Source of the DNA: Bacteroidota bacterium
Lineage (GTDB): Bacteria > Bacteroidota > Bacteroidia > Bacteroidales > JAGNHN01
NCBI GenBank assembly: GCA_022710185.1
Contig: JAKLHK010000004.1
Coordinates: 3,669 to 67,668, forward strand
DNA length: 64,000 bases
Direction: 5' to 3'
This document shows positions 15,575-43,428 of this stretch, in pieces. Each line of letters starts with the position of its first letter. Within the stretch, counting starts at the first letter, position 1. The notes under the pieces are model-generated. The model made no database searches and was not told the origin of the DNA. It was given only the letters and a program-made list of their open reading frames with translations. The translations under genes were made by a program, and so were the position numbers.

Positions 15575-15600
15575 ACTTATAAAATATTGGATCAAACAAT

Positions 15601-28095: not shown

Positions 28096-28211
28096 CGGCA
28101 ATGGATAGCCGAGGTGAATTCTCTCTAATTTTAATCCACCTGCCATCCCAACCATCGGATGCTAATAGTTAATTTACACTTTCTGTAAATAATTAATTTG
28201 TATCTGTAATT

Positions 28212-28559: not shown

Positions 28560-29683
28560 CTAACATAAACGAATATTATCCTCAAGAGGTATTGCATCCT
28601 GGTGTCACACTTAATGATAAGTTAGATGAACTTGGTATGACCAGGAAGGAATTTGCAATACGGACGGGTAAGCCAGAAAAGACTGTAATTGCTGTACTCA
28701 AGGGGGAAAGTTCAATTACACCAGAAATGGCTGTCATTTTTGAAAATGTGATAAAGATACCGGCTCATTTCTGGATGAATAAGCAGGCAAGATATAATGA
28801 ATATAAAGCACGTATAAACCGCAATAAGGTCATCAGCGATGCTGAGGATTGGGCAAGGCGGTTTCCGTATCGTGAAATGGCAGGATATGGTTGGGTTCCA
28901 AACGCAAGAAACATTCGCGAGAAAACAATCAACCTGCTGGACTACTTTGGAATTTCAGATGATGAAGCGTGGAAAGATTTGTATATCAATCGTAAGCTTA
29001 AAGTTGCTGCATATGCATCGTTGAAACACACACAAGAGCCTTATGCTATTTCTGCCTGGTTAAGACAGGGTGAGCTTCAGGCCGAATCCATCGAAGTTGG
29101 ATCATACAGCGAAAAGGGATTCAAAGAAGCGCTGAACTCAATCAGATCTTTGATGGTTGCACAGCCTGCGAATTTTTTTTCAGAACTTCAGAAGATATGT
29201 GCAGAAATAGGGGTTAAGGTATTCTACACACCAAAGCTTCCCAAAGTTCCTATTAGCGGATCCACAAGATGGATTAATGACACACCGATCATTCAGTTAA
29301 CGGCCAGGTATAGGCAAAATGATAGATTCTGGTTCACCTTCTTCCATGAAGCAGGGCATATCTTATTGCATAGGAAGAAATATGTCTCTCTTGAAGGGAT
29401 CGACTTCGCAGAGTCAGACAAAGAAAAAGAAGAAGAAGCGCATAGGTTTGCTGAGAATTGGACTTTTTCAGAAGATCAGGAAAAGGAAGTAATTGCATCA
29501 CTTCCCCTGAAAGAAACAGATGTCATATCATTTGCAAAGAAGTTTAACACTCATCCCGCCATGATTATTGGCAGGCTGCAACATAGAGGAGTTATACCGT
29601 ATAATGCTGGACGTGGATTTATGCTACCAATTGATTTGTCAAGCCAGGTTGAGGTGGGTCGGAAAAACTGGACCAGCAACTAA
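28556..29683 (+). CDS. HigA-type XRE HTH antitoxin domain fused to an ImmA/IrrE (M78, COG2856) metallopeptidase domain
   Basis: The N-terminus reads HPGVTLNDKLDELGMTRKEFAIRTGKPEKTVIAVLKGESSITPEMAVIFENV (HigA/VapI HTH). The C-terminal half carries the zinc motif FFHEAGHILLH. Confidence 0.85.
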   Translation: MTNINEYYPQEVLHPGVTLNDKLDELGMTRKEFAIRTGKPEKTVIAVLKGESSITPEMAVIFENVIKIPAHFWMNKQARYNEYKARINRNKVISDAEDWARRFPYREMAGYGWVPNARNIREKTINLLDYFGISDDEAWKDLYINRKLKVAAYASLKHTQEPYAISAWLRQGELQAESIEVGSYSEKGFKEALNSIRSLMVAQPANFFSELQKICAEIGVKVFYTPKLPKVPISGSTRWINDTPIIQLTARYRQNDRFWFTFFHEAGHILLHRKKYVSLEGIDFAESDKEKEEEAHRFAENWTFSEDQEKEVIASLPLKETDVISFAKKFNTHPAMIIGRLQHRGVIPYNAGRGFMLPIDLSSQVEVGRKNWTSN

Positions 29684-29723
29684 GTTGGATCAAATTCATA
29701 AACCGACCCACCTCACCATGCCC

Positions 29724-29853
29724 ATCAAAGGCAGGAAGCCATAGAACATGATACGTGTATTCATATAAAGATTATTGTGGTGGGCAGGCAAGGCACGGGG
29801 CGGAGGCTTGCGATAAGGCCTTGAAAGATATGGAATATGGGAGTGAATTGCAA
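29724..29853. repeat. 130-bp direct repeat, copy 2 (orphan promoter plus 5' fragment of the LamG/FISUMP gene)
   Basis: Matches 27966..28095. On the minus strand it encodes only a truncated MNTRIMFYGFLPLMG... peptide before a stop. Confidence 0.95.
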
Positions 29854-29962
29854 GCCGCATCCGTGGGAGGTGGCGATTACATGGGATATCTGAGAGCCCC
29901 TCCTGGAAGACAGCAAAATGTATGACACTGCAGTTAGGGACCGGACGCCTGACACCATAGCT

Positions 29963-30658
29963 TCAAATCTTCATCTCATTCAACTGAGACCGCAGACTGC
30001 TCCAGTTCGGAAGGTACTTGTCCAGATAGGCACGGAACTGATCGTTGTGTTTACGCTCAAGAAGGTGGACCAGCTCGTGGGCAACCACATACTCGATGCA
30101 TTCCATTGGCTTCTTCGCCATTTCCAGGTTAATGAGGATGTTTCCGGTCTCTGGGTTACAGGAACCCCACTTCGTTTTCATTCCCCGTACGCGTACCTTG
30201 TTGGTTCTGACGCCCAGGATCTTCTCCCATTTCGGAACGAGTTCAGCAAGGATGATCTTAAGCTCCTTCCTGTACCAGTTCTCCAACAAGGCACCCGCAG
30301 CTTCCTGTGGTTCACCTTCGTTCAGGTAGGCTTCTATATACTTTTTCCGGACTATGCGGACACGGGCTTGCCCCGGATGGTGCTCTCCTGTCATCGTCTT
30401 CAGAAGATAGCCACGACCAAGGAAATAATGGGTTTCCCGATCCAGATACTTTCGGGGGGACTGACGATCCTGACGCTCGAACTTCCGTTGCTGCTTCCGT
30501 ATCCAGGAGAGCCTAGAGATTACGAAAAGCTCAAGTGTCTTCTCATTGACATCACGGGGAGCAGCCAGACGTACCCTTCCCTCCGGGGGGTATACCGCCA
30601 AGTGCAGGTTTTTGATGTCCTTGCGGATCATTTCGACTTCTATGCCAGCAATCAGCAT
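29963..30658 (-). CDS. YgjP-like (DUF45/M48-type) zinc metallopeptidase, R-M associated
   Basis: HExxH motif in the context YVVAHELVHLLERKHNDQF. It lies directly downstream of hsdR with a 1-nt gap, the usual position for this family. Confidence 0.85.
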   Translation of the reverse strand: MLIAGIEVEMIRKDIKNLHLAVYPPEGRVRLAAPRDVNEKTLELFVISRLSWIRKQQRKFERQDRQSPRKYLDRETHYFLGRGYLLKTMTGEHHPGQARVRIVRKKYIEAYLNEGEPQEAAGALLENWYRKELKIILAELVPKWEKILGVRTNKVRVRGMKTKWGSCNPETGNILINLEMAKKPMECIEYVVAHELVHLLERKHNDQFRAYLDKYLPNWSSLRSQLNEMKI

Positions 30659-30659
30659 T

Positions 30660-33600
30660 TCAGATGTACTCCTTTTGGTTCTTCACGATCTCGAAAATCT
30701 TGTTCTGTAGGTCACGGTCCCCTACGTGGCGTAAGATGGCATATTTCACAGCCCGCTCCTTAAGGATGTTCCCTATCCAGCTGTCTTCCCTGCTGTTGCG
30801 TATGTCCTCATCAAGGGCAAGGACCAGCTCGATATTCTCACCGAGATTGTCGTAAAGTGCTTGCCTGGCAGCAGTACTGATCTGACTGGGATACTGGTTT
30901 TCCCGTTTGCCTGGCTGTATCTGGCGGGCAAGTTCCTCCACCTGGCGCAGGAACTCCTCATAACTTATCGCTTCTGCCTTCCGCTGGTCGATCAGCTCCT
31001 GCAGCAATATGCTCATCTTTTCATAATGAGCCGGGTTCATCGGCATCTCCTGGATGATCACCTTGCGCATATTGGCTTCGAGTGTTTCCGCCACGGCATT
31101 CTTGTTCCCCCGAATCGCAGAAGGAAGCCTGGTAGTTGCCTCACCTACTCCCAGTTCATTAATCAGCTGGAGAAGGGTAACCTCTCCGAAGTCACTGATG
31201 ACGCGGCTCGGATCAGCGGAAAGGTACATATCCAGCATCGTCCGCATCTGGGGTTCATATTGCTTCAGGTCGATATAATCCCCGCTGGCAACTTTTATCG
31301 TATCCCGAAGCTCCGTGAAATGCCTCACCCGGTTTTTCAACTGTGATGCTTCTGCATCCGTATATCCAAGCTCCTTCATCTCTGCAGCCGCATTGTTGTA
31401 TGCCCGGATGAGCGAGACCACTGCCTTGTAAAAGGTGAGTCGCTGTTCTTCGTGCTCCTTTAGTGCTGAAGGATCAGAGGTGTCGCCACAGAAGAAGCTG
31501 ATGTATTGTGGGGTGTTCCGGGGCGGTTCAACGCCTTCGCATAAACGTTCCACCGTCTCCAGGGCATCCTCCAGCTTTTCTTTTGCTTTCTCCAGCCTGT
31601 CAACGAGCAATCCCTGTATGTCCTCCGCCTGGAAGTTATCGAAGGCTTCAGAAGTATAATCTGCAATGGCAGTCCGCAGGGAATTGAACAGGTCCTTGTA
31701 ATCTACGATGTAGCCGAACTCCTTGTCTTCCTTCTCGGTCCGGTTCACGCGGCAGATCGCCTGAAACAGCCCGTGGTCCTGCATCTGCTTGTCGATATAA
31801 AGATAGGTGCAAGCCGGGGCATCGAAGCCGGTCAGCAGCTTATCCACCACGATCAGCAGCTGCATATTCGCTGGCTCATCAATGAACTGCTTCTTTACAT
31901 CCTTCTCAAACTGTTCGCGGGATTTTTCGCCCAGCATTCGCTGGTATGTCTCATATTGCTCTTCCTTCTCCGTCTCTCCCTCCCCTGTGCTTTCTCCCTT
32001 GATGGTAGCCAGTGAGGGCTCATACGAGGTGATGATGGCGCATTTGCGGAAGCCGATTTCCTGGAATATCTCGTAGTAGCGGCAGGCTTCATAGATACTG
32101 GAGGTTACCAGCAGGGCATTGCCGTGCCCATTGCGCAGACGGGGCTTGGTGTTAAAGTCCAGGAGGATATCCCCGGCAATCTTATATAGTCGGTCGCGGG
32201 TGCTAAGAATCTTCTGCATCGTACCCCACTGCTGTTTCAGCTCAGCCTTTGGCAGGTCATTCATTCCCCGGGTCATACTCTCGAACCATATATCCACTCC
32301 CTTCTGGTCGTTGATGCGCTGATCCACATCCCTGGCTTCATACAACAGATCCAGTACTATCCCGTCCTCCACCGCCTCGTTGAACTTATAGGTATGGATG
32401 TAGCTGCCGAACACTTCCAGGCTGGTCTGGTCGGTCTTGAGCAATGGTGTGCCGGTAAACCCTATGAAGAGGGCATCGGGCAGCAAATCCTTCATCGCTT
32501 GGTGAAGTAACCCACTTTGGGTACGGTGGCATTCATCGATGAATACGAAGAGGTTGCCTTTGGGCTGGAAATTTGCAGGACGGCGAAGTTCGTTCGCAAA
32601 GTCCTTTGCCGCTTCCTCATCGCTCTTCCCAAACTTATGCACCAGGGAACACAGCAGCCAGGGAAGGGTACCATTGAGCTTGTCGATCAGGTCCTGTCCG
32701 CTGGTGGTACGGTATATACTCTCGTCCACTCCCTTGAAAACCTTTTCGATCTGCTCATCCAACTCCGTCCGGTCAGTGATAATCAGCAATCGAGCATTCT
32801 CCTGATGCTCCCGTATCCACTTGGCAAGCCATACCATCGTGAGGCTCTTCCCGCTACCTTGCGAATGCCAGATGATCCCTCCCTCCCTTCTGCGGATATA
32901 CTCCTGAGCTGCTTTTACCCCGAAATACTGGTTGGGTCGGCAGGTCTTTTTTATCCCGGCGTCGAATACAGTGAAATCGTGGATCATCTCCAGCAACCTT
33001 TCCTTGCTGAGCAACTGCTGCAGCTGCTGATCCAGTATGCTGCTGTCCTTGTCGTAGGTATGGTTTTCCTCCTTCCAGCGCAGGAAGTGCTTCTCCGGAG
33101 TTTTAATGGTTCCGTAGGATAATCCCTGGCTATCGTTCCCTGCAAGCACGAACTGTATGGTAGCAAAGAAGGGCTTAATGAAACGATGGAGCTGGTTATC
33201 AAGGTTTTGGCGAATACCTTCCGACACCATTACGCTGGCACGCTTCAGTTCGAGTACCACTAACGCAATGCCGTTGACGTACACTACCACGTCCGGACGT
33301 TTGGTATGCTCTCCGGGCACGGTAACCTCTTCGGCTACGGTAAAACGGTTGTTTTGTGGATGCTCCCAATCGATCAGGTTCACCGTGATGATCGCATCGG
33401 TTCGCTCGTCGCGTACTTTCACCCCATAACGCAGTATGCTGTATACTGCCTTATTCACCGGGTACAGATCATCCTGAGGGTTCACGGCTGCTGCGCGTAC
33501 CAGGTCTTGTACCGCCCTCGTTATTATCGCATCCGTGTACTTTTCCTGGCTTCTTAGCCACGCTTTCAGGTCACCTTCCCGGATGTTGCTGTTCTGCAGG

Positions 33601-33686
33601 TCTTTGAGGTTGCCAAGGTAGGAATAACCCAAGGCGTCAACCATCAGTTGGATCACACGATCCTGTGTCAACCTTTCCTTGATCAT
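30660..33686 (-). CDS. hsdR: Type I restriction endonuclease subunit R
   Basis: 1008 aa. N-terminal nuclease region (RPDVVVYVNGIALVVLELK), helicase motif I (HSQGSGKSLTM), motif II (FIDECHRTQ), later SF2 motifs (DKLLTGFDAP, QAICRVNR). Confidence 0.95.
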   Translation of the reverse strand: MIKERLTQDRVIQLMVDALGYSYLGNLKDLQNSNIREGDLKAWLRSQEKYTDAIITRAVQDLVRAAAVNPQDDLYPVNKAVYSILRYGVKVRDERTDAIITVNLIDWEHPQNNRFTVAEEVTVPGEHTKRPDVVVYVNGIALVVLELKRASVMVSEGIRQNLDNQLHRFIKPFFATIQFVLAGNDSQGLSYGTIKTPEKHFLRWKEENHTYDKDSSILDQQLQQLLSKERLLEMIHDFTVFDAGIKKTCRPNQYFGVKAAQEYIRRREGGIIWHSQGSGKSLTMVWLAKWIREHQENARLLIITDRTELDEQIEKVFKGVDESIYRTTSGQDLIDKLNGTLPWLLCSLVHKFGKSDEEAAKDFANELRRPANFQPKGNLFVFIDECHRTQSGLLHQAMKDLLPDALFIGFTGTPLLKTDQTSLEVFGSYIHTYKFNEAVEDGIVLDLLYEARDVDQRINDQKGVDIWFESMTRGMNDLPKAELKQQWGTMQKILSTRDRLYKIAGDILLDFNTKPRLRNGHGNALLVTSSIYEACRYYEIFQEIGFRKCAIITSYEPSLATIKGESTGEGETEKEEQYETYQRMLGEKSREQFEKDVKKQFIDEPANMQLLIVVDKLLTGFDAPACTYLYIDKQMQDHGLFQAICRVNRTEKEDKEFGYIVDYKDLFNSLRTAIADYTSEAFDNFQAEDIQGLLVDRLEKAKEKLEDALETVERLCEGVEPPRNTPQYISFFCGDTSDPSALKEHEEQRLTFYKAVVSLIRAYNNAAAEMKELGYTDAEASQLKNRVRHFTELRDTIKVASGDYIDLKQYEPQMRTMLDMYLSADPSRVISDFGEVTLLQLINELGVGEATTRLPSAIRGNKNAVAETLEANMRKVIIQEMPMNPAHYEKMSILLQELIDQRKAEAISYEEFLRQVEELARQIQPGKRENQYPSQISTAARQALYDNLGENIELVLALDEDIRNSREDSWIGNILKERAVKYAILRHVGDRDLQNKIFEIVKNQKEYI

Positions 33687-35209
33687 AGGTAGCGTTTTCT
33701 CATTTTGGTCTGCCTGATCTTCCCTTTACGGGTTAGGCGGTACTTCTGATTACTGCTTGTCGCCCTGGAGATGGTCATTTCTATCAAACCTTCCTCCAGC
33801 GCCGGGTTCAGATAATTGTCCCGAAAACTGTTCGTATCTCGTAATTCAAGTACATCCATCAACTCTACCCGGCTCATTTCTCCAGAGATACACCACAGTA
33901 CCCTCTCTACAAGTGATTGAATATCTGCGATATCAACCACAGATTCAGGTTCAGCTTGTGGGGTGACTTGTGGGGTGACTTGTGGGGTGACTTGTGGGGT
34001 GAAAGCCTTTCGGTAGATGATGGTCTTGAACACATCTTCCTGACGGAATCCGGGTTCCGGAAGTCCTGCCTGTCTGCAATCACGTATCATATCTCCGGTA
34101 CCGGTACCCATTCGTTCAATATACCCAAGCTGGTACATTGGTTCTGCCAGCAAAGGATTCGCCGGGAACGAAGCATGAGGCTTACGAAGCTGGTCAATGG
34201 ATAAACTTGGGGGAAGATGCCCTGGATTCCAAACCTCCAGACGGTCTTTAAACAGCATCACCTGAACACTCCCGGTACTCGTATAATCACGGTGGGCGAC
34301 AGCATTCACTATCGCTTCCAGTATGACGGTTCTTGGGATCTCATAGGTCACCGGAACATCATTGGATGCTTTGCGCGTTCCGGTAGCTACATCAATGCGT
34401 GAAAGCACAAAGTCAGCTGCCTGATCGATTAGTTCAAACACATCTCCCCTCAGGTCTTTCTGTGCCAGTATGGGTTTGGCGATCTCGGTTCCATGAAAAT
34501 GGGCACATTTCACCAGCGATGTCACAAACCATCTTTGAGGATCATTGCCGAATAAGAGAAGGGCACTATTGGTAAGATTTCCGGACCTCAACAGGTTAAG
34601 ATGAGTTAATACATCCGGAACAGAAGAGCCTGCGGACAATGGGAACCCGCGCTTCGCCTTCGCGGATTCAATGAATGATCGAACTTTCTCATCAGAAATA
34701 TCGGACAGTTTTGCCTCCCGGTTCGCGGCAGCATCGAAGGGGGCAGTCTGTATCGACTGCCGCTTCATAAGATATTCAACCAGTGCACTGTACACCTGGG
34801 TCTTCAAATCTGACAGGCTATCAAACCTATGGCGGACCAATTCCGATTGTGCCTTCTCCACCAGTGCCTGCATTTTCGGATGGCGGTCATCCTTTTCTCC
34901 ACGAAGCAAGACCACACGATACCGATGTTCCTGCGATGCTGCCAGATATTCCTGCTCTGTAGGCGAGGTCCGGTCGGCATTCTCAAATCCATACTCCGAT
35001 CCCCATAACCCAAGATAGATCTCACATCTGCCTGCCGCTTCAAGGTAAACCTGGTCTGCCCGTTGATCCGATGCCGGCAGCATCTCGAACAGCCAGGGCT
35101 CGAAGAACTGTCCAAGCAGCTTATCTCCCAGGATGTATTCCGCGAGAGCCTGCCGTTCTGCCGCAAACTCACGCTGGACACTACTTATGAACACCCTGGA
35201 TTTACTCAT
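33683..35209 (-). CDS. DUF4062-like N-terminal domain + HATPase_c_4 (RecG-like putative DNA-binding ATPase) + C-terminal winged-helix protein
   Basis: The N-terminus (RVFISSVQREFAAERQAL...CEIYLGLWGSEYG) resembles DUF4062, from memory. The central block EAIVNAVAHRDYTSTGSVQVMLFKDRLEVWNPGHLP is the HATPase_c_4 signature. The C-terminal part is wHTH-like. ATGA overlaps couple it to hsdS upstream and hsdR downstream. Confidence 0.75.
   Translation of the reverse strand: MSKSRVFISSVQREFAAERQALAEYILGDKLLGQFFEPWLFEMLPASDQRADQVYLEAAGRCEIYLGLWGSEYGFENADRTSPTEQEYLAASQEHRYRVVLLRGEKDDRHPKMQALVEKAQSELVRHRFDSLSDLKTQVYSALVEYLMKRQSIQTAPFDAAANREAKLSDISDEKVRSFIESAKAKRGFPLSAGSSVPDVLTHLNLLRSGNLTNSALLLFGNDPQRWFVTSLVKCAHFHGTEIAKPILAQKDLRGDVFELIDQAADFVLSRIDVATGTRKASNDVPVTYEIPRTVILEAIVNAVAHRDYTSTGSVQVMLFKDRLEVWNPGHLPPSLSIDQLRKPHASFPANPLLAEPMYQLGYIERMGTGTGDMIRDCRQAGLPEPGFRQEDVFKTIIYRKAFTPQVTPQVTPQVTPQAEPESVVDIADIQSLVERVLWCISGEMSRVELMDVLELRDTNSFRDNYLNPALEEGLIEMTISRATSSNQKYRLTRKGKIRQTKMRKRYL
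33955..34002. repeat. Perfect 12-bp x 4 in-frame tandem repeat, encoding (TPQV)4
   Basis: CTTGTGGGGTGA is repeated four times without mismatch. It falls in the linker of the DUF4062/HATPase_c_4 protein (FTPQVTPQVTPQVTPQAEP). Confidence 0.95.
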
Positions 35210-36399
35210 ACCAGTCGGATTTTGCCAGTTAGCAGGGCTTGCATCATACCTAGCTTTTGGAGTTTGAGCTTCTGGAGCTTTGTTTCCAACAATTCAGTCT
35301 GTTCATCCAATGCAGAAAGTGAGTTAGCGATGTCTTCCTGTTCCTTAATGGAGCTGGGCTTATACAGGATAACATTCTTTACAATTTCCTTATTAAGATT
35401 TAGTACGCTACTTCCCGCAGCCATATTAAGATATTGATTTAGGACAAACGTGGAGGTAAGTGAATAGTACAAGAATTCACGATTGAAATCAGTCTGATAA
35501 TCTTGAAGTACTAACCACCCGTCATGAATACACCCTCCAATCCTTAGAATATAAGGTCTTCCAAAACTCATTGAATTTGAAAGTAAAAGGTCCCCCTCAA
35601 AGACTACTCTTGAGTTTCTAATCCCTTCAGCAACAATTTTTTCATTTGTTGAATCAATAAACCTGCTTTTGGGTCTTGTATCTCCGATTTTAATCCAATT
35701 TATTCCATTTGGGTCATTGGTCAAGTAGTCTTGAATGGGTCTTGGTGAACCACCTCTGCTTACCTTAATAGTATTTCCTACTTTTACTTTAACCCACCCC
35801 TCCTTCGGTCGCAGCAGCTCCTGCATCACGCCTTTCTTGATGGCTTTCTTCTTCTCGATGAGCTGTTCGGTGTGGGCGATGAGGGCATCCATATCCGTGA
35901 GAGCTTCGGCGATGGCGGCTTGCTCGGAGAGAGGGGGAAGGGGGATTTGAGTCTTTGAAACAACCGTCCATTCAGCACGAGGCATTTTTGTTCCTATACT
36001 GATCATTGCTGATGAAATCACACGTTCGCTTTGCACAGTGTAGTATAGGTAATGTGAAGTTATCGTTTTGCCTTTCTTTAAAACCCAAATTTCCGTTGAA
36101 CAAATGCCATTATCCTTCGGCAATAGGAATTTTCGTAAATATGGTCTTAGCTTTCCAAACAAAACGTCTCCTGGTTCAAAGATTGCCTTCTGACTTATGA
36201 CAGATTTTGCTGGTGTAGAGCCAAGAATCCTGCCGGTCCCAACTGAAATATGTTCTAGTTCTATGCAGGGTGTATCATCATTAAGAGAACTTGCAAATAC
36301 GCGCTTCTTTGAGGGAACACAAAGGTTCCCCAAAAATGAAACCTCCCAGTTCTCAGGTATCAACCCTATTTCCGTCTGTTTATATCCTTCATTCTTCAT
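35206..36399 (-). CDS. hsdS: Type I R-M specificity subunit S (two target-recognition domains)
   Basis: The typical features are present: GLIPENWEV, FGKLRPYL, LPPLSEQAAIAEAL..D..I conserved central repeat, and a C-terminal LQKLK..MMQALLTGKIRL. Confidence 0.93.
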   Translation of the reverse strand: MKNEGYKQTEIGLIPENWEVSFLGNLCVPSKKRVFASSLNDDTPCIELEHISVGTGRILGSTPAKSVISQKAIFEPGDVLFGKLRPYLRKFLLPKDNGICSTEIWVLKKGKTITSHYLYYTVQSERVISSAMISIGTKMPRAEWTVVSKTQIPLPPLSEQAAIAEALTDMDALIAHTEQLIEKKKAIKKGVMQELLRPKEGWVKVKVGNTIKVSRGGSPRPIQDYLTNDPNGINWIKIGDTRPKSRFIDSTNEKIVAEGIRNSRVVFEGDLLLSNSMSFGRPYILRIGGCIHDGWLVLQDYQTDFNREFLYYSLTSTFVLNQYLNMAAGSSVLNLNKEIVKNVILYKPSSIKEQEDIANSLSALDEQTELLETKLQKLKLQKLGMMQALLTGKIRLV

Positions 36400-38612
36400 A
36401 TTTCAACCCGATACGATGCACATTTATCAATAATACGCTTCACAGAGGTGCTTACCTGACCGTGGTGCATCCCTTCCCATAGCACCTTACTACAACCCAC
36501 AACCACCAGTTTAGAGATTGCTCTGCTTAATGCCACATTAACCAGGCGTTCGCCATCCTTGCCATAGTACAGGTTGCCAATGCGTATGGGGCTTTTGTTG
36601 GTATCGAACAAACCATCTACCATATCGAAGATGATAATATCGCATTCGCTACCCTGGAAACTATGTATGGTTCCCACCTTTGCTTCAAAGTTCGGTTTGC
36701 ATTCTTGTACAAACTCTTCAACAGCTTTCTGGTAGTTGAGCACCTGCGCACGATAGGGTGCAATAATGCCAACTGAACCACTAATGCCATCTGCATCGTA
36801 CTCCCCCAGGAGACACATTACATACTCGAGGCTACCTTCGTTATAGCGGGAGTGAGTTCCAGTACGGGCTACGGCATAATCTTCATCTTTACCAAGGTCC
36901 ACAAAAGTGACGTTGCCGGCTCTTGGCGAGACTTCATAACAAAGAGACTGACGGTCATTTTTAAGTGTATCAAGTTGTCCCCCGTAGAATTCAGTATTGA
37001 CCAGCTCGATGATAGGCTTGGCACAGCGCCGCTGAAGTTTCAGCATAGAAACGGCTTCATGACTTGCGATATCACCAGTACCCAGAAGATCGAACAGACT
37101 TGAGTGAAGCCAGCGATCAGACAAGGCAGTGTTGGATAAGGCGATTGGTCCGAGCTGCCGGTGGTCCCCTGCGACGACGATACGCTTCGTAACCTTACTG
37201 GATAATGCCAGCAAGATTGGGGGTGACATCATACTTCCTTCGTCAATCACGAGGTTATCAAAGTTGGCTTCTGAGATAGACTCTTCCATAAGCGCTTTGG
37301 AAGAGGTGGTAAAGATGATCCGGGCATTCTCTATTCTTTCTCGCAGATGATTTGCCAACTGGTGTTTTGCCTGTTCCAGTTCCGATAGCTTTCTTGCATA
37401 GGTTGTCCTATTTTTATCCGCATCAATGGCAGGAATCTCTTCTTCGAGTACCTGTATCCTGCTGCGAAATTCAAGAGTCACATCATCTTCCGGGAACAAT
37501 TCTTCGACTTCCAGTAAATCCTTATCCCCCACATATCCTATCCGCAGTATCTCTCCACGCTTTAGTATTTCTGCATCCTGTTTCTTAATGGCGGCTACAA
37601 GCTTCATTGCAAGTCCATTTACGGCTACGTTGGCTATGGAACAGACCAGGGTTCGCTCACCTTTCATGAACAATGCAAGGAGCAAGGATGCCAACGTATA
37701 GGATTTTCCCGTACCAGGCGGTCCCCATATATATGTAACGGGTTGTGTTATCGATTTCCTTACGGCTTCTTGTTGACTGACATCCAAATTGCCAGCAAGG
37801 GGTGGGATATTCTCATCAGGGAAATAAATGATGTCAGGTGCCGAACGGAACAGATTCCTGAACCGATGACTGCTCAGGTCAATCCTTTCGATACTTTTGA
37901 TCAGGTTACTGATCAGGTACCAGGGGTTATTCTCCAGTCTGGGGCGACCACCTGATGGGAGCTTGCGGCTGGTCTGGAAAATAACCTTGCTTGTTCGACT
38001 ATCAAACTGAAGAATAGTTACATAAGTGATAAAACCATGGTTTTTATACCGAACCTTTAATCCCTCCGGTAGCTGGATCACCTGGTCGTCCGAGTCCGTA
38101 AAACACCTCGCTGAATAGACCTGGATACCCTTTACTGTCGTTAAATAGGTCAAGCCATACAGGTCCACATAATTCTTTCGGGTGGATTCATTGAATGAAC
38201 GTATTTCATCCTTCAGTGCCTGTATGATTTCTTGCTGAATCCCGATATCATCTATTTGTGGCGGGCGAACTGAGAAGATACCTGGGTGATGTTCTCGTAT
38301 TAGGGAAATTGCTGGTCGGAATTTCCTTAGTCGTCCAGTACTGTCGAACTCGAAGAATTCCCTGTACTGTCCAAGCATCCGTGTAATCAGATGTACCCCA
38401 TCCTGACCGTTACCAAAGATCAATGATGCTGCCTGTCCATTGGTAAAATAGAAATAAACCGGCTTTTGATGACGAGGGGCTTGCAGGTAAATAAGTTCAG
38501 ATCCTTTCCTCACCAACTGCCTGATATAATAGTAGAATATCTCTTTAGGATCGTTTTTATCCCTCAGCGAGCGCCGAATCAGCTCATCGTCTATGTGAAT
38601 TAATTCCTGCAT
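36396..38612 (-). CDS. Upf1/DNA2-like SF1 helicase (AAA_11/AAA_12-type) with an uncharacterised ~270-aa N-terminal region
   Basis: Walker A IWGPPGTGKSYT, Walker B VIDEGSMM, GDHRQLGPI, LKLQRRC, IIAPYRAQV, TIHSFQGSECDIIIF, NVALSRA. It lies between hsdM (1-nt gap) and hsdS (ATGA overlap). Confidence 0.88.
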   Translation of the reverse strand: MQELIHIDDELIRRSLRDKNDPKEIFYYYIRQLVRKGSELIYLQAPRHQKPVYFYFTNGQAASLIFGNGQDGVHLITRMLGQYREFFEFDSTGRLRKFRPAISLIREHHPGIFSVRPPQIDDIGIQQEIIQALKDEIRSFNESTRKNYVDLYGLTYLTTVKGIQVYSARCFTDSDDQVIQLPEGLKVRYKNHGFITYVTILQFDSRTSKVIFQTSRKLPSGGRPRLENNPWYLISNLIKSIERIDLSSHRFRNLFRSAPDIIYFPDENIPPLAGNLDVSQQEAVRKSITQPVTYIWGPPGTGKSYTLASLLLALFMKGERTLVCSIANVAVNGLAMKLVAAIKKQDAEILKRGEILRIGYVGDKDLLEVEELFPEDDVTLEFRSRIQVLEEEIPAIDADKNRTTYARKLSELEQAKHQLANHLRERIENARIIFTTSSKALMEESISEANFDNLVIDEGSMMSPPILLALSSKVTKRIVVAGDHRQLGPIALSNTALSDRWLHSSLFDLLGTGDIASHEAVSMLKLQRRCAKPIIELVNTEFYGGQLDTLKNDRQSLCYEVSPRAGNVTFVDLGKDEDYAVARTGTHSRYNEGSLEYVMCLLGEYDADGISGSVGIIAPYRAQVLNYQKAVEEFVQECKPNFEAKVGTIHSFQGSECDIIIFDMVDGLFDTNKSPIRIGNLYYGKDGERLVNVALSRAISKLVVVGCSKVLWEGMHHGQVSTSVKRIIDKCASYRVEI

Positions 38613-38613
38613 G

Positions 38614-41031
38614 TCACAGCATTGTAAAACCCATCTTACGGAGATGCCCCTTTACCTTCTCATCCAGTTCGTTGATCTCCTCTTCGATAAAGGGTAAGGG
38701 AGTCTCATAGCGTTCCATCAGCTCCTTAATCCTTCCAGTCAGTCGTTGACTCACGCGCTCCAGCTCCCTTTCGATGGCAGCCTCCATTGCTTTCATCCAC
38801 TTTGAACCGACCACGATCTCCTTCACCAGGGAGGGTGTAAGGCGCTGATATTGTGCCAATGCCAGTCTATCGATCTCCTTCCCGAGATCGCTGATCCTGG
38901 ACTTAAGTTGGGACTGTTTCTCCGAGAGATCCAAGTAGGTCTTCATAACCCTGACCTCATCCTTTGCTTCCTTGTCGTCCCTGATCTCCTTCAGGCGCCG
39001 GGTGATTGTGCCCTTGTTCACCTTATCGAAATCTGAGAAGTAGCCTTCATCACCATTCTGCTCTTCCACGAGCTCATCCAGCTCAGCAGCAATGGCATCT
39101 GCTTCCGCTTCCAGCTCTTGCAATCTGTTTTGTTGATCAGCAAAGAACTCAGAGATCATCAATGCCGGAGGGATGAGGTCGCTGTTCCAGCCCTTATCCT
39201 TCTGCTTGCCCGACTTGTTGGTATCTGTAACACGGTATGGTTGTGATTCCCAGCCTGCTTCAGCGATCAGATATAGATCATCCTGCATCACCTCTGCCCA
39301 ATAATCCATAAGGTGTTGATAGATATCGTAGTTATTCAGCAGTTTTTCCAAAGCATAGGCTTCCAGCAGGCGCTCACCAATGTGCGCGATAACCTGCCGG
39401 GGATTGCAGCCAATGTCCAGCGACTGCAGATAGTCTTTTGCTTCCTGAGACCAGCTGCCAAAGACCTCCTTCACCTGCTTGCTGTAACTGCGAAATTCAG
39501 GATATTCAAAGATGGCAGCCTTGATTTCCCCCTTATCGATGAGCATTTTGAAGTATCCTGGACGATCTCCTGCCGTGAACAGCTTCGACCTCAATCCTGG
39601 AAAAACGGTCCAATATTCTTGTAGTCCGTCCACATCGCGTTCCGGGATACCCCCGTACAGATGGGCAGCAATATCCTGAATATCTTCTACCTCCTGGCTT
39701 TCGATATATCGCGGGATATTCAGGTTGAAGTCATTCTTTGGATCTGCAATCTCTTCCACAGCTACAAGGCGACTATAACCCGGGATCTCGGTCTGCTTGT
39801 TGAAGACATCCACAATACGGTGGATATCCTGCTCCCGGAGACGGTTTTTGTTTCCGTCCTTGATAAATCCCTTGCTGGCATCGATCATAAAGATCCCCTT
39901 TCGTTCGGGTGCACCTGCCTTATCGATCACGATGATGCAGGCAGGGATACCGGTACCATAGAACAGGTTAGCCGGCAGCCCGATGATCCCTTTGATCAGT
40001 CCCCGGCGGATGATGTTCCTGCGGATCTCCGCTTCGGCATTTCCACGGAACAATACCCCGTGGGGAAGAATGATCGCCCCCTTGCCTGAGCTTTTCAGGG
40101 ATGCGATGATATGTAGCAGGAAGGCATAGTCCCCGTTCTTCTGCGGGGGCATTCCATAGCCCGTAAACCGGTTATGTTCATCGTTCTGGGGATCGAAGCC
40201 CTGCATCCAGTTCTTGCTGGAGAATGGAGGATTGGCTACAGCGAAGTCGAAAGTCTTGAGGTATCCATGATCGTCAAAGAACAGAGGGTTGGAGAGTGTG
40301 CTTTGTCCTTTCACGATCTCGGCTGCATCGTTGCCGTGAAGTATCATATTCATCTTAGCAAGTGATCCTGTAGCATTATCTTTTTCTTGTCCGTATAGGG
40401 AAGACTTCCCATCATGCTCATCGCCGACCTTAAGCAGCAGTGATCCGGAACCACAGGTCGGGTCATAGAATGTTCGGTTCTCCCTCACCCCTTTTGGAAT
40501 CTCCAGCACCATTGCCATTATCCGGCTCACCTCTGCAGGTGTGTAGAACTGTCCCTTTGCCTTTCCAGATTCTGTTGCGAAGTGACGCATAAGATATTCA
40601 TAGGCATCCCCCAGCAGGTCATCGCCACCAGCTTTATTCTTGCTGAAATCAAGGGCAGGGTTCTCGAAGATGGCGATCAACTTACTGAGCGTGTCAACCA
40701 TCTCCTTACCTTTTCCCAGCATTTCCTCATCGTTGAACACCGCAACGTCAATCACGTTCTGGAGTCCATTTGCTCTGGCGATGGCACCGATAGCAGTATC
40801 CATCCGCTCACCGATATCCTTGTGGTGCTTCAGCTTGGCAATCTCTGTGAAGCTGCATCCTGGAGGAACCTCAATCAGAGAATAGGGGTCACTTACTGCC
40901 TTATCGGAAACATACTTCCAGAAGAGCATAACCAGCACATAGTCCTTATACTGTGAGGCGTCCATACCCCCACGCAGCGCGTCGCAGCTTGCCCAGAGCG
41001 AGCTGTATAGTTCAGATTTCTTGAGAGCCAT
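38614..41031 (-). CDS. hsdM: Type I R-M N6-adenine DNA methyltransferase subunit M with a long coiled-coil C-terminal extension
   Basis: Start moved to the conserved MALKKSELYSSLWASCDALRGGMDASQYKDY (HsdM N-terminal domain). SAM motif YDPTCGSGSLL and catalytic NPPFS. About 300 extra C-terminal residues rich in E/K/L heptads. Confidence 0.92.
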   Translation of the reverse strand: MALKKSELYSSLWASCDALRGGMDASQYKDYVLVMLFWKYVSDKAVSDPYSLIEVPPGCSFTEIAKLKHHKDIGERMDTAIGAIARANGLQNVIDVAVFNDEEMLGKGKEMVDTLSKLIAIFENPALDFSKNKAGGDDLLGDAYEYLMRHFATESGKAKGQFYTPAEVSRIMAMVLEIPKGVRENRTFYDPTCGSGSLLLKVGDEHDGKSSLYGQEKDNATGSLAKMNMILHGNDAAEIVKGQSTLSNPLFFDDHGYLKTFDFAVANPPFSSKNWMQGFDPQNDEHNRFTGYGMPPQKNGDYAFLLHIIASLKSSGKGAIILPHGVLFRGNAEAEIRRNIIRRGLIKGIIGLPANLFYGTGIPACIIVIDKAGAPERKGIFMIDASKGFIKDGNKNRLREQDIHRIVDVFNKQTEIPGYSRLVAVEEIADPKNDFNLNIPRYIESQEVEDIQDIAAHLYGGIPERDVDGLQEYWTVFPGLRSKLFTAGDRPGYFKMLIDKGEIKAAIFEYPEFRSYSKQVKEVFGSWSQEAKDYLQSLDIGCNPRQVIAHIGERLLEAYALEKLLNNYDIYQHLMDYWAEVMQDDLYLIAEAGWESQPYRVTDTNKSGKQKDKGWNSDLIPPALMISEFFADQQNRLQELEAEADAIAAELDELVEEQNGDEGYFSDFDKVNKGTITRRLKEIRDDKEAKDEVRVMKTYLDLSEKQSQLKSRISDLGKEIDRLALAQYQRLTPSLVKEIVVGSKWMKAMEAAIERELERVSQRLTGRIKELMERYETPLPFIEEEINELDEKVKGHLRKMGFTML

Positions 41032-41282
41032 AGGCGAAGATCCTTGAAATGGTAGGGGTAAATCTAAGGAATAGTTGCCGTAATCAACGCTATTGGACCG
41101 CAAAAACATATATAGTTGACCTCTATTGCAATTGTTCGATTGATGGAAAGGCATTACCTTTCAGCTCTATAAGCATATCAACAGCCCATAGGTATTGGAG
41201 CCCGCATCAGAGATGCAAAGACGGTGGAGATTGCTATGGGGTTATTGGAGCTGGAGCATTTACTATCCAATCATAAGAATCT

Positions 41283-41894
41283 ATGGCAACGCTAACCAAC
41301 GAAGGCTACCTCACCGAATTATTAGATATAAAGGAAAAACTCGAAGATTTCGTGATCCTTATTAGCCAAGGTAGAGCGACATACTTTAAGGACGTTGCTC
41401 TCAAGCTTCGTATCCTGTATTGTAAGAAAAGACCATTACTGAAGGAGATTGAGCTTCGGTTTTTGGTTCAGTGCATGGTAGCCATCAAATATTCTATTGA
41501 GGAACAAGTAGCACGCGGAATGCTTCCAGCCTCTCTATTAGATGGATTGCATTTCCAAGTTAAATGCAATGCATCAACATGGTTTGAGCGAGGGCATGAA
41601 CTCGTTCCGATATGGATAGCACTTGAGCGTGACGCGGTTATTCTTACTAACGAAAGCTACAGCTTAAGAAGAATAATAGAAGTAATGGCTGACCGAATGG
41701 GTGGGGCTCATATAGATCAATCCGTGCCTGATGCAGACCTGAAGCTATACAATAGTCAAACCCAAATCGGTGGGTTTTCTCTTGCTGAATCGGTGTTATT
41801 TGATGTTGCAAGGTCATCGATTAAATTAATTGAACTTATTGAAGACAAGCTAATTGGTGGTAATGCATCTCGGTTCATAATAGCTAGTTTGTGA
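41283..41894 (+). CDS. Hypothetical protein (orphan, A+T-rich, divergent from hsdM) carrying an Rx4H motif
   Basis: 203-aa ORF with no competing ORF and coherent, helix-like composition. I recognise no family. R138-MGGA-H143 is encoded at 41694-41711. Confidence 0.6.
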   Translation: MATLTNEGYLTELLDIKEKLEDFVILISQGRATYFKDVALKLRILYCKKRPLLKEIELRFLVQCMVAIKYSIEEQVARGMLPASLLDGLHFQVKCNASTWFERGHELVPIWIALERDAVILTNESYSLRRIIEVMADRMGGAHIDQSVPDADLKLYNSQTQIGGFSLAESVLFDVARSSIKLIELIEDKLIGGNASRFIIASL

Positions 41895-42925: not shown

Positions 42926-43009
42926 ACGGTCTGAGTGCTTGGTTACTACGCTAAATAGACGCAACAGGACCCTGGAACGGAAAAAATGAAGTGAAGAATT
43001 GTTGACTGT

Positions 43010-43427: not shown

Positions 43428-43428
43428 G

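What the first reader, a model, noticed from the sequence alone, without database searches (positions are those of the whole stretch)
29963..41031. Six-gene translationally coupled type I R-M operon with two extra embedded genes
All six minus-strand genes are joined with essentially no intergenic DNA.

- hsdM stop at 38614 and helicase start at 38612 leave a 1-nt gap.
- Helicase stop and hsdS start overlap as ATGA at 36396-36399.
- hsdS stop and the DUF4062-like gene start overlap as ATGA at 35206-35209.
- That gene's stop and hsdR start overlap as ATGA at 33683-33686.
- hsdR stop at 30660 and the YgjP-like start at 30658 leave a 1-nt gap.

A 738-aa Upf1-like SF1 helicase and a 508-aa DUF4062-like/HATPase_c_4/wHTH protein are therefore obligately co-transcribed, and probably co-translated, with M, S and R. 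Known precedents for genes embedded in hsd loci, such as PrrC in the prr locus, are latent second-line defence effectors guarded by the R-M complex. This particular pair and order (M-helicase-S-ATPase-R-peptidase) is not a system I recognise. It could be a composite or backup anti-phage system.
Basis: partly seen in the sequence, partly recalled or inferred. Interest (0 to 1): 0.8.

Follow-up and report, generated by a model that had tools for sequence, protein, structure and literature searches.

The report
Restriction operon carrying two extra defence genes
This is a real, tightly packed six-gene type I restriction-modification operon carrying two self-contained candidate anti-phage genes, a predicted NAD-destroying suicide enzyme and a Upf1-like helicase; it is a new example of an already described habit of defence genes nesting inside restriction operons, not a new kind of system.

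Summary

- **DUF4062 gene and YgjP-like peptidase:** both belong to a conserved backbone, hsdM-hsdS-DUF4062-hsdR-ygjP, found in at least five other metagenomic operons of the same Hsd lineage.
- **Helicase:** it is variable cargo in the M|S slot. A sister locus has a HEPN gene there, and others carry UDG, PD-(D/E)xK, TIR, DpnII-like, Zeta-toxin or GmrSD genes.

Neither family depends on hsd. About 26% of DUF4062-family loci are hsd-linked. The rare helicase family lies in or beside type I R-M in 4 of 11 contexts, at varying positions, and otherwise in defence islands.

DUF4062 was shown in 2026 to be a TIR-like NADase anti-phage effector. The validated catalytic Glu of KpSwz aligns with invariant E87 here. 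The C-terminal half is a COG2865-type GHKL-like/wHTH module. The helicase is a bare Upf1/IGHMBP2-like SF1B core.

Best reading: layered, co-expressed defence by "embedding", a known phenomenon (PrrC, TgvAB, Payne et al. 2024). Interest is moderate.

The parts
41262..41289 (-). Only sigma-70-like promoter match upstream of hsdM (weak, 9 of 12); candidate operon promoter
   Evidence: Consensus match only. The host may use a non-sigma-70-type promoter.
38614..41031 (-). hsdM, long-form type I methyltransferase (805 aa; alternative upstream ATG at 41154 gives 846 aa)
   Evidence: Pfam HsdM_N + N6_Mtase, 6e-98. PADLOC MTase_I PDLC03027 full length from aa 42. TIGR00497 above its cut-off. NPPF motif.
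36396..38612 (-). Embedded cargo gene 1: 738-aa Upf1/IGHMBP2-like SF1B helicase with no nuclease domain. It has a family-specific N-terminal region (aa 1-~145), a 1B beta-barrel (~148-227) and a 1C helical insert (~377-429).
   Evidence: - AAA_11/AAA_12.
- MkoA helicase part only, 1e-59.
- AF2 model pLDDT 87, pTM 0.85.
- Foldseek top hits Upf1, IGHMBP2, SETX, DNA2, ZNFX1.
- Walker A GPPGTGKS and DEGS intact.
- GC 0.46 against 0.50-0.52 for the backbone genes.
35206..36399 (-). hsdS, specificity subunit with two target-recognition domains (397 aa)
   Evidence: Methylase_S x2. PADLOC Specificity_I full length, 7e-68.
33683..35209 (-). Embedded gene 2 (conserved in this hsd lineage), 508 aa:
- N-terminal DUF4062/NIR TIR-like NADase domain (aa ~3-150; F7, E87-Y88).
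- COG2865-type module: partial Schlafen/AlbA_2-like region plus GHKL-like HATPase_c_4, aa ~160-400.
- Disordered repeat linker (403-429).
- Fic-like_C wHTH (434-493).
   Evidence: - Pfam.
- Alignment A2 invariants.
- AF2 model pLDDT 82.7.
- Foldseek: 3LMM at 1e-12, plus BcmB and TIR-STING for the N-terminal domain.
- The KpSwz chain aligns at E 1.6e-8, with its E97A position on E87.
- 4RGL Fic C-terminal domain, 1.4e-17.
30660..33686 (-). hsdR, restriction/translocase subunit (1008 aa)
   Evidence: HSDR_N + SWI2_SNF2 + T1R_D3-like. TIGR00348, 548 bits. PADLOC REase_I PDLC03044 full length. GSGKS, DECH and D...ExK motifs.
29963..30658 (-). YgjP-like (DUF45) Zn-metallopeptidase, 231 aa; conserved last gene of the backbone and co-diverging with HsdR
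   Evidence: - PF01863, 203 bits.
- HELVH motif.
- Found after hsdR in L077, L112, L139, L153 and L163.
- Identity correlates with HsdR at r = 0.87.
- A good AAGGAG Shine-Dalgarno sequence lies upstream.
28100..43427 (.). Low-GC (0.475 against ~0.56-0.60 in the flanks) genomic island that carries the operon and ends at the 3' end of tRNA-Thr(cgt) (43428-43501, minus strand). No integrase is present.

Best explanation
The locus is a functional-looking type I R-M operon on a ~15-kb low-GC island beside tRNA-Thr.

**Backbone and cargo.**
- The operon belongs to a lineage whose conserved backbone is hsdM-hsdS-(DUF4062/NIR-COG2865 gene)-hsdR-ygjP-like peptidase.
- The junctions of this backbone act as docking slots for swappable defence cargo.
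- In this strain the M|S slot holds a rare Upf1-like SF1B helicase.

**How it most likely works (layered defence from one promoter).**
1. HsdM2S methylates self DNA, and HsdR2M2S translocates and cuts unmethylated incoming DNA. The components are shown by homology; the activity is inferred.
2. The DUF4062 protein is an autonomous abortive-infection module.
   - Its C-terminal wHTH/GHKL-like/Schlafen-like part senses an infection cue, probably a nucleic acid or nucleoprotein, possibly ATP-dependent.
   - Sensing releases the N-terminal TIR-like NADase.
   - The NADase depletes NAD+ and stops the infected cell.
   - The effector chemistry is inferred from the aligned catalytic Glu and from experiments on Swarozyc, Evangelion, Vulcan and Avs2. 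The trigger is unknown.
3. The helicase is a separately acquired single-gene defence candidate. It acts 5'-3' on phage RNA or ssDNA (remodelling or stalling replication or transcription intermediates), alone or with host nucleases. This is the weakest step and is inference only.
4. The YgjP-like Zn-peptidase is a stable HsdR partner, most likely a regulator of R-subunit activity or turnover. This is inferred from co-divergence.

Embedding gives co-regulation and co-transfer. It does not create a new multi-subunit machine.
For: **Anatomy.**

**Conserved backbone with variable cargo.**
- L163: GmrSD-M-S-DUF4062-R-YgjP.
- L077: M-S-UDG-REase_ARP/PDDEXK-DUF4062-R-YgjP.
- L112: M-HEPN-S-DUF4062-R-YgjP.
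- L139: M-S-TIR-TPR-DUF6978-DUF1828-DUF4062-DpnII-R-YgjP.
- L151: M-S-Zeta toxin-DUF4062.
- Sources. HsdM and HsdR in these loci are 52-58% identical to the window's.

**Autonomy of the DUF4062 family.**
- More than 5,600 homologue clusters.
- Only 12 of 47 informative loci are hsd-linked.
- The commonest upstream neighbours are HsdS (8 of 62) and N6_Mtase (5 of 62); the rest are diverse.
- hsd-linked members are scattered across the family tree.
- P4 identity does not track HsdR identity (r = 0.18), whereas YgjP (0.87) and HsdM (0.74) do.

**Effector.**
- The DUF4062 Pfam hit is above its cut-off.
- The KpSwz catalytic position aligns with invariant E87.
- NADase and abortive-infection function of DUF4062 is reported in 10.64898/2026.05.01.722283, 10.64898/2026.06.25.731849 and 10.64898/2026.09.04.749371.

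**Helicase.**
- Upf1-like fold.
- Family contexts in defence islands or next to R-M at variable positions.
- Lower GC than the backbone genes.
- The N-terminal region is found in only 23 representative clusters.

**Concept.** Payne et al. 2024 and TgvAB.
Against: - No experiment: expression, restriction, methylation, NADase activity and phage protection are all inferred.
- The DUF4062 gene is retained immediately upstream of hsdR, often with an ATGA overlap, in operons that have diverged to ~45-58% identity. That could mean a functional tie to the R-M complex rather than mere co-residence.
- A helicase without a nuclease or other effector domain has no obvious way to stop a phage on its own. 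Its recurrent position at the edges of R-M operons (4 of 11 type I, 3 of 11 other R-M) could mean it assists restriction.
- The neighbourhood samples are small (11 helicase loci; 47 informative DUF4062 loci), drawn from metagenome contigs, and annotated with simple ORF calling.
- The NJ tree has no support values.
- The background rate of hsd linkage was not computed genome-wide. The only control is a crude one: 2 of 69 distant-helicase loci.
Confidence: 0.6

Rival explanations
1. Guard or backup model. The DUF4062-COG2865 protein is functionally wired to this lineage's type I enzyme. It is held silent by, or monitors, HsdR/HsdM-S, and fires its NADase when a phage anti-restriction factor disables the enzyme. 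This is PrrC/EcoprrI logic with a new effector. YgjP may act as a processing or reset protease.
For: - The gene is kept directly upstream of hsdR in the window, L163, L077, L112 and L080, with -4 to +6 nt junctions, across operons only ~45-58% identical.
- The commonest neighbour of the family is HsdS or HsdM.
- There is no Shine-Dalgarno sequence before hsdR other than inside the DUF4062 gene, so translation is probably coupled.
Against: - About three quarters of informative family loci have no hsd gene within 5 kb.
- hsd-linked members are scattered in the tree.
- P4 does not co-diverge with HsdR (r = 0.18).
- Other genes can be inserted between it and hsdR (L139, DpnII-like).
- In other Hsd families it lies between M and S (L111, L113, L119).
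- Characterised DUF4062 proteins sense phage proteins or replication intermediates directly and work as single genes.
Confidence: 0.2
2. Accessory-to-restriction model for the helicase. The Upf1-like helicase is not an independent defence. It assists R-M systems, for example by clearing proteins or R-loops ahead of translocating HsdR, processing cleavage products, or countering anti-restriction DNA mimics.
For: - 7 of 11 family contexts are in or directly beside R-M operons on the same strand: window, L153, L160, L004 (type I); L155, L071, L072 (other types).
- It has no effector domain of its own.
Against: - Its position relative to M, S and R is different in every case (inside, 5' flank, 3' flank).
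- Its partners span unrelated R-M types.
- Several members have no R-M neighbour: L070, L154, L161.
- Sister operons of the same Hsd lineage lack it entirely.
Confidence: 0.12
3. Non-defence reading. The 508-aa protein is a transcription regulator of the operon (it was historically annotated 'predicted HTH transcriptional regulator / RecG-like'). The helicase is a leftover replication or mobility gene of the island.
For: - C-terminal wHTH.
- Source annotations 'predicted HTH transcriptional regulator'.
- The island has decayed and lacks an integrase.
Against: - Intact, invariant NADase catalytic residues aligned to a validated active site.
- Cargo in sister operons is uniformly defence-type.
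- Helicase relatives sit among GmrSD, CBASS, Type ISP, MmeI and ApeA-HEPN genes, not among replication or transfer genes.
Confidence: 0.05

Closest known systems
Defence genes embedded in type I R-M operons ('guilt-by-embedding', Payne et al. 2024, 10.1101/2024.01.29.577857; TgvAB in V. cholerae VPI-2, PMC11411939; Campylobacter rlo genes; PrrC)
   Same: - Extra genes are nested between hsd genes in the same orientation.
- The cargo is drawn from defence-type families that also occur elsewhere.
- The proposed benefit is complementary, co-regulated defence.
   Different: - The cargo here (a Upf1-like helicase and a DUF4062-COG2865 protein) matched none of the PADLOC v2 models full length, including the PDC candidates from that study.
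- Two unrelated cargo genes occupy two different slots.
- One of them is a conserved feature of the Hsd lineage rather than sporadic.
PrrC-EcoprrI (anticodon nuclease guarded by a type I R-M enzyme)
   Same: An abortive-infection-type effector gene lies inside an hsd operon. The idea is a second line of defence once restriction is defeated.
   Different: - PrrC is found almost exclusively embedded in type I R-M (Payne et al.). Both families here are mostly outside hsd operons.
- There is no ABC-ATPase/ACNase domain.
- No evidence of physical masking by the R-M enzyme.
DUF4062/NIR TIR-like NADase defence proteins: Swarozyc (KpSwz), Evangelion (Eva01), Vulcan, Vesta, Avs2-NIR (2026 preprints)
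   Same: - N-terminal DUF4062 domain with the conserved N-terminal aromatic residue and catalytic Glu-Tyr (E87-Y88).
- A profile-to-KpSwz alignment (E 1.6e-8) places the E97 position on E87.
- Effector-plus-variable-sensor architecture.
- Enrichment near defence genes.
   Different: - The auxiliary region is a ~350-aa COG2865-type module (Schlafen/AlbA_2-like remnant + GHKL-like HATPase_c_4 + Fic-like_C wHTH). The others have the small wHTH AUX of Swz, the short AUX of Eva01, HEAT repeats (Vulcan), a phosphatase partner (Vesta) or STAND/TPR (Avs2).
- This architecture and its type I R-M embedding are not mentioned in the searchable text of those papers.
COG2865-type proteins (AlbA_2/Schlafen + HATPase_c_4 + wHTH; structure 3LMM, DIP2311)
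   Same: - Residues ~130-500 superpose on 3LMM (Foldseek 1e-12, ~380 columns).
- Same 'EAIVNAVAHRDY ... NPG ... GTGTG' motifs.
- From my own knowledge, not checked here: this COG has long been noted next to R-M genes (Makarova et al. 2011).
   Different: The N-terminal AlbA_2 domain is not detected by Pfam. Its place is taken by the DUF4062 NADase domain.
Mokosh (MkoA/MkoB, MkoC) and other COG1112/Upf1-like defence helicases (CoCoNuT CnuH, PMC11090510)
   Same: Upf1-like SF1B helicase core. The PADLOC MkoA profile matches aa 274-731 at 1e-59. Defence-island context.
   Different: - Only the C-terminal helicase part of MkoA (positions 614-1097 of 1112) is matched.
- There is no PLD nuclease partner or fusion, no McrBC partner, and no RNA-binding or RNase domains.
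- The protein is essentially a bare helicase core with a rare ~145-aa N-terminal region.

Membership tests
Type I restriction-modification system | HsdM with an N6-adenine methyltransferase domain and NPPF catalytic motif | tested here: met
   PF02384 6e-98 and PF12161; TIGR00497 250.6 bits against a 242.75 cut-off. NPPF at aa 267 of the 805-aa form.
Type I restriction-modification system | HsdS with two target-recognition domains | tested here: met
   Two Methylase_S stretches. Full-length PADLOC Specificity_I match.
Type I restriction-modification system | HsdR with an N-terminal PD-(D/E)xK nuclease and SF2 translocase motifs | tested here: met
   HSDR_N, SWI2_SNF2 and T1R_D3-like. TIGR00348 548 bits against a 284.55 cut-off. 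GSGKS, DECH and D132..E146xK148 motifs.
Type I restriction-modification system | Sequence-specific methylation and ATP-dependent restriction of unmodified DNA | not testable with these tools
   Needs a methylome and plasmid or phage restriction assays.
Embedded defence cargo in multi-gene defence systems (Payne et al. 2024) | Gene nested between the genes of a known system, in the same orientation | tested here: met
   Helicase lies between hsdM and hsdS. The DUF4062 gene lies between hsdS and hsdR. All are on the minus strand.
Embedded defence cargo in multi-gene defence systems (Payne et al. 2024) | Homologues also occur outside the host system, typically in defence contexts | tested here: met
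   Helicase. DUF4062 family.
Embedded defence cargo in multi-gene defence systems (Payne et al. 2024) | Demonstrated anti-phage activity of the embedded gene(s) | not testable with these tools
   Needs plaque assays.
PrrC-like guarded effector | Effector family found almost exclusively inside hsd operons | tested here: not met
   12 of 47 DUF4062-family loci and 4 of 11 helicase-family loci are hsd-linked.
PrrC-like guarded effector | ABC-ATPase N-domain plus anticodon-nuclease C-domain | tested here: not met
   No such Pfam, PADLOC or NCBIfam hit for either embedded protein.
DUF4062/NIR NADase defence effectors | DUF4062 (PF13271) domain above the gathering threshold | tested here: met
   61.8 bits against 24.7, aa 5-91 covering profile positions 1-82 of 82.
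DUF4062/NIR NADase defence effectors | Catalytic glutamate (KpSwz E97, Eva01 E87-Y88) and N-terminal aromatic motif conserved | tested here: met
   F7, S9, S10, Q12, E14 and E87 are invariant in 31 family members. The window has E87-Y88. In the profile-KpSwz alignment, E87 falls on the Ala of the E97A construct (chain position 84; construct described).
DUF4062/NIR NADase defence effectors | Infection-triggered NAD+ hydrolysis | not testable with these tools
   Needs enzymology or in-vivo NAD+ measurement.
Swarozyc / Evangelion (specific named systems) | Their own auxiliary region (small wHTH AUX that binds portal in Swz; short AUX in Eva01) | tested here: not met
   Beyond the TIR-like domain, the KpSwz chain gives only a non-significant -2.2-bit stretch. 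The window protein instead carries HATPase_c_4 + Fic-like_C and superposes on 3LMM.
COG2865-type Schlafen/AlbA_2-HATPase_c_4 proteins | HATPase_c_4 domain followed by a wHTH | tested here: met
   PF13749 1.6e-20 and PF21247 2.7e-17. 3LMM and 4RGL matches.
COG2865-type Schlafen/AlbA_2-HATPase_c_4 proteins | N-terminal AlbA_2 (PF04326) domain | tested here: inconclusive
   No PF04326 hit. However, ~380 columns superpose on 3LMM, and aa 150-382 match PADLOC pAgo-associated profiles. A partial or divergent remnant is likely.
Mokosh | COG1112/Upf1-like helicase domain | tested here: met
   MkoA PDLC03920 1.3e-59 over aa 274-731.
Mokosh | Full-length MkoA architecture plus a PLD nuclease (MkoB partner or MkoC fusion) | tested here: not met
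   Only profile positions 614-1097 of 1112 are matched. There is no PLD domain in the protein or the operon.
Nhi (nuclease-helicase immunity) | N-terminal nuclease fused to an SF1 helicase | tested here: not met
   The Nhi profile hits only the Walker A region, E 0.002. The fold shows no nuclease domain.
Upf1-like SF1B helicases | Two RecA domains with a 1B beta-barrel on a stalk and a 1C insertion; helicase motifs intact | tested here: met
   Foldseek hits Upf1 2gjk and IGHMBP2 4b3g, E ~1e-30, TM (target) 0.69-0.74. Secondary-structure map. Invariant motifs.
YgjP-like (DUF45) metallopeptidase | PF01863 domain with the HExxH zinc site | tested here: met
   203.3 bits against a cut-off of 26. 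HELVH at aa 194.

The most novel reading that the evidence does not exclude
In this Hsd lineage the DUF4062-COG2865 protein, with the co-diverging YgjP-like peptidase, is not just a passenger but a built-in alarm on the type I enzyme. It monitors the state of HsdR/HsdM-S, or DNA ends and translocation intermediates that they create. It converts failed or blocked restriction into NAD+ depletion. This would be a PrrC-style guard using a TIR-like NADase, in one of the most abundant uncharacterised DUF4062 architectures (more than 5,600 protein clusters). The Upf1-like helicase would then be a further, independently acting single-gene defence of a new family.
Probability: 0.15. Interest if true: 0.75.

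Novelty: new member of a known kind. Interest (0 to 1): 0.4.

Why it matters
- **A clean natural example of type I R-M operons as modular carriers.** One Hsd lineage keeps a fixed backbone (M-S-NADase-R-peptidase). Its gene junctions accept many different defence cargos: helicase, HEPN, TIR, UDG, nucleases, Zeta toxin, GmrSD.
- **Two concrete, testable candidates.**
  - A very abundant DUF4062(NIR)-COG2865 architecture that extends the newly discovered NADase defence family to a new sensor module, and links the old 'Schlafen-like regulator next to R-M' observation to a defined effector chemistry.
  - A rare bare Upf1-like helicase family that rides with R-M systems and has no model in PADLOC v2 or NCBIfam.
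- **A conserved HsdR partner.** The YgjP-like peptidase co-diverges with HsdR and its role in restriction control is still unknown.

None of this overturns current ideas. It refines them and supplies candidates.

Tried and rejected
1. **Genome-collection scan with the full helicase alignment.** This served only as a crude negative control for hsd linkage.
2. **P0048 look-up (Lacihabitans).** Not on record.
3. **'The pair is a conserved two-gene add-on'.** Rejected: no other locus has both genes. Only L072 has a SLFN/HATPase_c_4 gene near a helicase relative, on the opposite strand and inside an MmeI unit.
4. **Mokosh, Nhi, Hhe, MADS, Hma or PLuB membership for the helicase.** Rejected: only P-loop or helicase-core partial matches.
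5. **A nuclease in the helicase N-terminus.** There is no Pfam hit, and the fold is stalk plus 1B barrel of Upf1-type. The first ~100 residues remain unassigned.
6. **The divergent 203-aa ORF (41283-41894) as part of the system.** Rejected: no family hit, and it is absent from sister operons.
7. **Integrase or att repeat for the island.** None found. The only long direct repeat brackets the neighbouring HigB/M78 cassette.
8. **Literature search for COG1451/COG2865 links with R-M.** Nothing usable was found in the held library. Those links are cited from my own knowledge only.
9. **Supplements of the DUF4062 preprints.** No mention of HATPase, Schlafen or Hsd.

Full report
**1.

Six minus-strand ORFs occupy 29963-41154. 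Reading the junctions gives:
- TGA-C-ATG between hsdM and the helicase.
- ATGA overlaps at 36396-36399, 35206-35209 and 33683-33686.
- TGA-A-ATG between hsdR and the last gene.

Only the last gene has a clear Shine-Dalgarno sequence (AAGGAG). The others start inside or directly after the preceding gene, so translational coupling is plausible.

The hsdM ORF can start at 41154 or 41031. The full-length PADLOC methyltransferase profile starts matching at residue 42, which favours 41031. Public gene calls disagree.

Family scans confirm the following:
- HsdM: HsdM_N + N6_Mtase.
- HsdS: two Methylase_S domains.
- HsdR: HSDR_N + SWI2_SNF2 + T1R_D3; TIGR00348 at 548 bits.
- A YgjP-like metallopeptidase (203 bits).
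- A 738-aa AAA_11/AAA_12 helicase.
- A 508-aa DUF4062 + HATPase_c_4 + Fic-like_C protein.

All catalytic motifs are intact. Promoter-like and terminator-like sites inside the operon are fewer than in shuffled sequence, and one promoter-like site lies upstream of hsdM. This is consistent with one transcription unit but does not prove it.

**2. Context.**

- The operon lies in a low-GC stretch (0.475 against ~0.56-0.60) from about 28.1 to 43.4 kb. The stretch ends at the 3' end of a tRNA-Thr gene. It looks like a genomic island without an integrase.
- The window is part of a 185,821-bp JGI metagenome contig.
- The identical M-helicase-S-DUF4062-R arrangement is present on eight contigs from at least four samples. 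It is therefore a stable feature of one organism, and not an assembly artefact.

**3. The DUF4062 gene is part of a conserved backbone.**

Its family is very large: more than 5,600 clusters, typically 50-55% identical across phyla.

Eighty metagenome loci and the closest relative (P0121, 65% identical) were mapped. In operons whose HsdM and HsdR are 52-58% identical to the window's, the order hsdM-hsdS-DUF4062-hsdR-ygjP recurs, with different extra genes in the junctions:

| Locus | Gene order |
|---|---|
| L163 | GmrSD-M-S-DUF4062-R-YgjP |
| L077 | M-S-UDG-REase_ARP/PD-(D/E)XK-DUF4062-R-YgjP |
| L112 | M-HEPN-S-DUF4062-R-YgjP (same slot as the window's helicase) |
| L139 | M-S-TIR-TPR-DUF6978-DUF1828-DUF4062-DpnII/DUF2321-R-YgjP |
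| L151 | M-S-Zeta toxin-DUF4062 |

Junctions in these operons are as tight as in the window.

**4. The DUF4062 family is nevertheless autonomous.**

- Of 47 loci with at least 3 kb of flank, 12 (26%) have an Hsd gene within 5 kb on the same strand. Of 15 loci with 5 kb on both sides, 4 do.
- A Pfam census of immediate neighbours gives HsdS (8 of 62) and N6_Mtase (5 of 62) as the commonest upstream genes. The rest are diverse, including housekeeping genes.
- In an NJ tree, hsd-linked members are interspersed with unlinked ones.
- Among five complete backbone operons, HsdR identity tracks YgjP (r = 0.87) and HsdM (0.74) but not the DUF4062 protein (0.18).

The association is therefore strong and recurrent but not obligate, and the gene appears to be exchanged between operons. 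This differs from PrrC, which Payne et al. describe as almost exclusively embedded in type I R-M.

**5. What the DUF4062 protein is.**

Three 2026 preprints show that DUF4062 ('NIR') is a TIR-like NADase effector of anti-phage systems: Swarozyc, Evangelion, Vulcan, Vesta and Avs2. Its catalytic Glu is essential for defence and NAD+ depletion.

N-terminal domain:
- The family alignment has invariant F7, S9, S10, Q12, E14 and E87. The window has E87-Y88.
- A profile of the family matches the deposited KpSwz chain (E 1.6e-8).
- That alignment places E87 on the Ala of the E97A construct (construct described). This is a direct test of active-site conservation, and it is met.

Rest of the protein:
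- It superposes on 3LMM, a COG2865-type AlbA_2/HATPase_c_4/wHTH protein (Foldseek 1e-12).
- It carries GHKL-like motifs (E298..N302..D308, NPG, GTGTG).
- It ends in a wHTH that matches the C-terminal domain of a Fic protein (4RGL, 1.4e-17).

The predicted mechanism is a sensor (nucleic acid or nucleoprotein, possibly ATP-dependent) that releases an NADase and causes abortive infection. The effector step is supported by homology. The trigger is unknown. This architecture is not mentioned in the searchable text of the three preprints and has no PADLOC v2 or NCBIfam model.

**6. What the helicase is.**

- The AF2 model is confident (pLDDT 87, pTM 0.85).
- It matches Upf1, IGHMBP2, senataxin, DNA2 and ZNFX1 over ~640 columns (E ~1e-30, TM up to 0.74 on the target). 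The match includes the 1B barrel and the 1C insert.
- No nuclease or other effector domain is present.
- PADLOC matches only the helicase part of Mokosh MkoA.

The family is small. There are about 100 full-length relatives at 30-49% identity. The N-terminal 270 residues find only 23 representative clusters among 1.84 billion proteins.

Eleven contexts were examined:

| Context | Locus and arrangement |
|---|---|
| Inside a type I operon | The window |
| 5' of a type I operon | L153: hel-S-M-x-S-DUF3800-x-R-YgjP |
| 3' of a type I operon | L160: S-Abi_C-x-x-PLD-R-hel |
| 3' of a type I operon | L004: M-S-R-hel |
| Last gene of an SNF2/DUF1016/large-MTase operon | L155 |
| Beside a Type ISP enzyme, UDG, a second helicase and GmrSD | L071 |
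| Beside MmeI + SLFN/HATPase_c_4 and CBASS | L072 |
| In other defence-type islands | L070, L154, L161 |
| Uninformative (contig end) | L162 |

Distant SF1 helicases show no hsd linkage (2 of 69 loci). In the window the helicase has a lower GC (0.46) than M, the DUF4062 gene, R and YgjP (0.50-0.52).

The helicase is therefore mobile defence-island cargo with a marked preference for R-M neighbourhoods. It is not a fixed subunit. How a bare helicase would protect is unknown, and this is the weakest part of any model.

**7. Comparison with what is known.**

Nesting of defence genes inside type I R-M operons is established:
- PrrC.
- The Campylobacter rlo genes.
- TgvAB in V. cholerae (PMC11411939).
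- The systematic 'guilt-by-embedding' study of Payne et al. 2024. It covered type I R-M, found 96.7% of embedded genes co-oriented, and proposed complementary defence and co-regulation.

The present locus is a new member of that kind. New here are the identity of the cargo and the picture of a fixed backbone with swappable slots. The YgjP/COG1451 and COG2865 associations with type I R-M are, to my knowledge, long noted (Makarova et al. 2011), but I could not verify this in the held library.

**8. Verdict.**

- Observation: confirmed.
- Interpretation: partly supported. These are defence-type genes and plausibly backup defence. They are not a specific six-gene system, and not a PrrC-like obligate guard by distribution.
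- Best model (confidence ~0.6): layered, co-expressed but mechanistically independent defences on an R-M chassis.
- Main rival (~0.2): the DUF4062 protein, with YgjP, is functionally wired to this Hsd lineage.
- Novelty: new member of a known kind.
- Interest: moderate (0.4). The value lies mainly in a source of two well-defined candidates for experiment.

Noticed in passing
window 43092-43430 (also 42389-42585): A 48-nt tandem repeat (7.1 copies, 96% matches, purine-rich GAGGAAGAGGGA core) directly abuts, by 3 nt of overlap, the 3' end of tRNA-Thr(cgt) at 43428-43501 (minus strand). A related 47-nt x1.9 block and scattered copies lie ~600 nt away. Function unknown; possibly remnants of an integration site or a satellite-like array.
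   Followed up: partly
window 42578-42925 (-): Between the two repeat blocks lies a small four-helix-bundle '23S rRNA intervening sequence protein' gene (PF05635, according to the public gene call in L156).
   Followed up: no
window 27957-28095 and 29715-29853; genes 28212-28559 (+) and 28556-29683 (+): A 139-nt direct repeat (96% identical) brackets a HigB-like toxin gene and an overlapping HTH + M78 (IrrE-like) peptidase gene, convergent with the operon. The peptidase matches PADLOC PD-Lambda-2_B (1.3e-31). It looks like a separately inserted toxin-antitoxin or defence cassette with a duplicated target.
   Followed up: partly
window 41283-41894 (+): A 203-aa ORF divergent from hsdM has no Pfam or PADLOC hit. 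It is present only next to the same strain's operon (four contigs) and not beside sister operons. Function unknown.
   Followed up: partly
window 33955-34002: A perfect 12-nt x4 tandem repeat (CTTGTGGGGTGA on the + strand) encodes the disordered linker (aa ~403-429, pLDDT below 50) between the HATPase_c_4 and wHTH domains of the DUF4062 protein. Family members also have a repetitive Q/T-rich linker of variable length.
   Followed up: no
window ~15000-18500 and 51734-59490: Two further low-GC islands. The second lies next to tRNA-Pro (59988-60065). It encodes a 1346-aa S8 subtilase with dockerin and a T9SS C-terminal sorting domain, a 262-aa ORF without hits, and a 959-aa Ig-like/dockerin protein.
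   Followed up: no
L071 12024-14414; L160 2284-6619: In L071 the helicase relative is followed directly by a second, paralogous AAA_11/AAA_12 helicase (796 aa; MkoA-like, 8.6e-30). In L160 the type I operon carries embedded genes with weak Azaca ZacA/ZacB similarity (ZacB 5.9e-13) and an Abi_C gene.
   Followed up: no
backbone loci L163, L077, L112, L139 vs window: The YgjP-like peptidase co-diverges with HsdR (r = 0.87 over 10 pairs) much better than the DUF4062 protein does (r = 0.18). This suggests the peptidase is the true long-term partner of HsdR in this lineage.
   Followed up: partly
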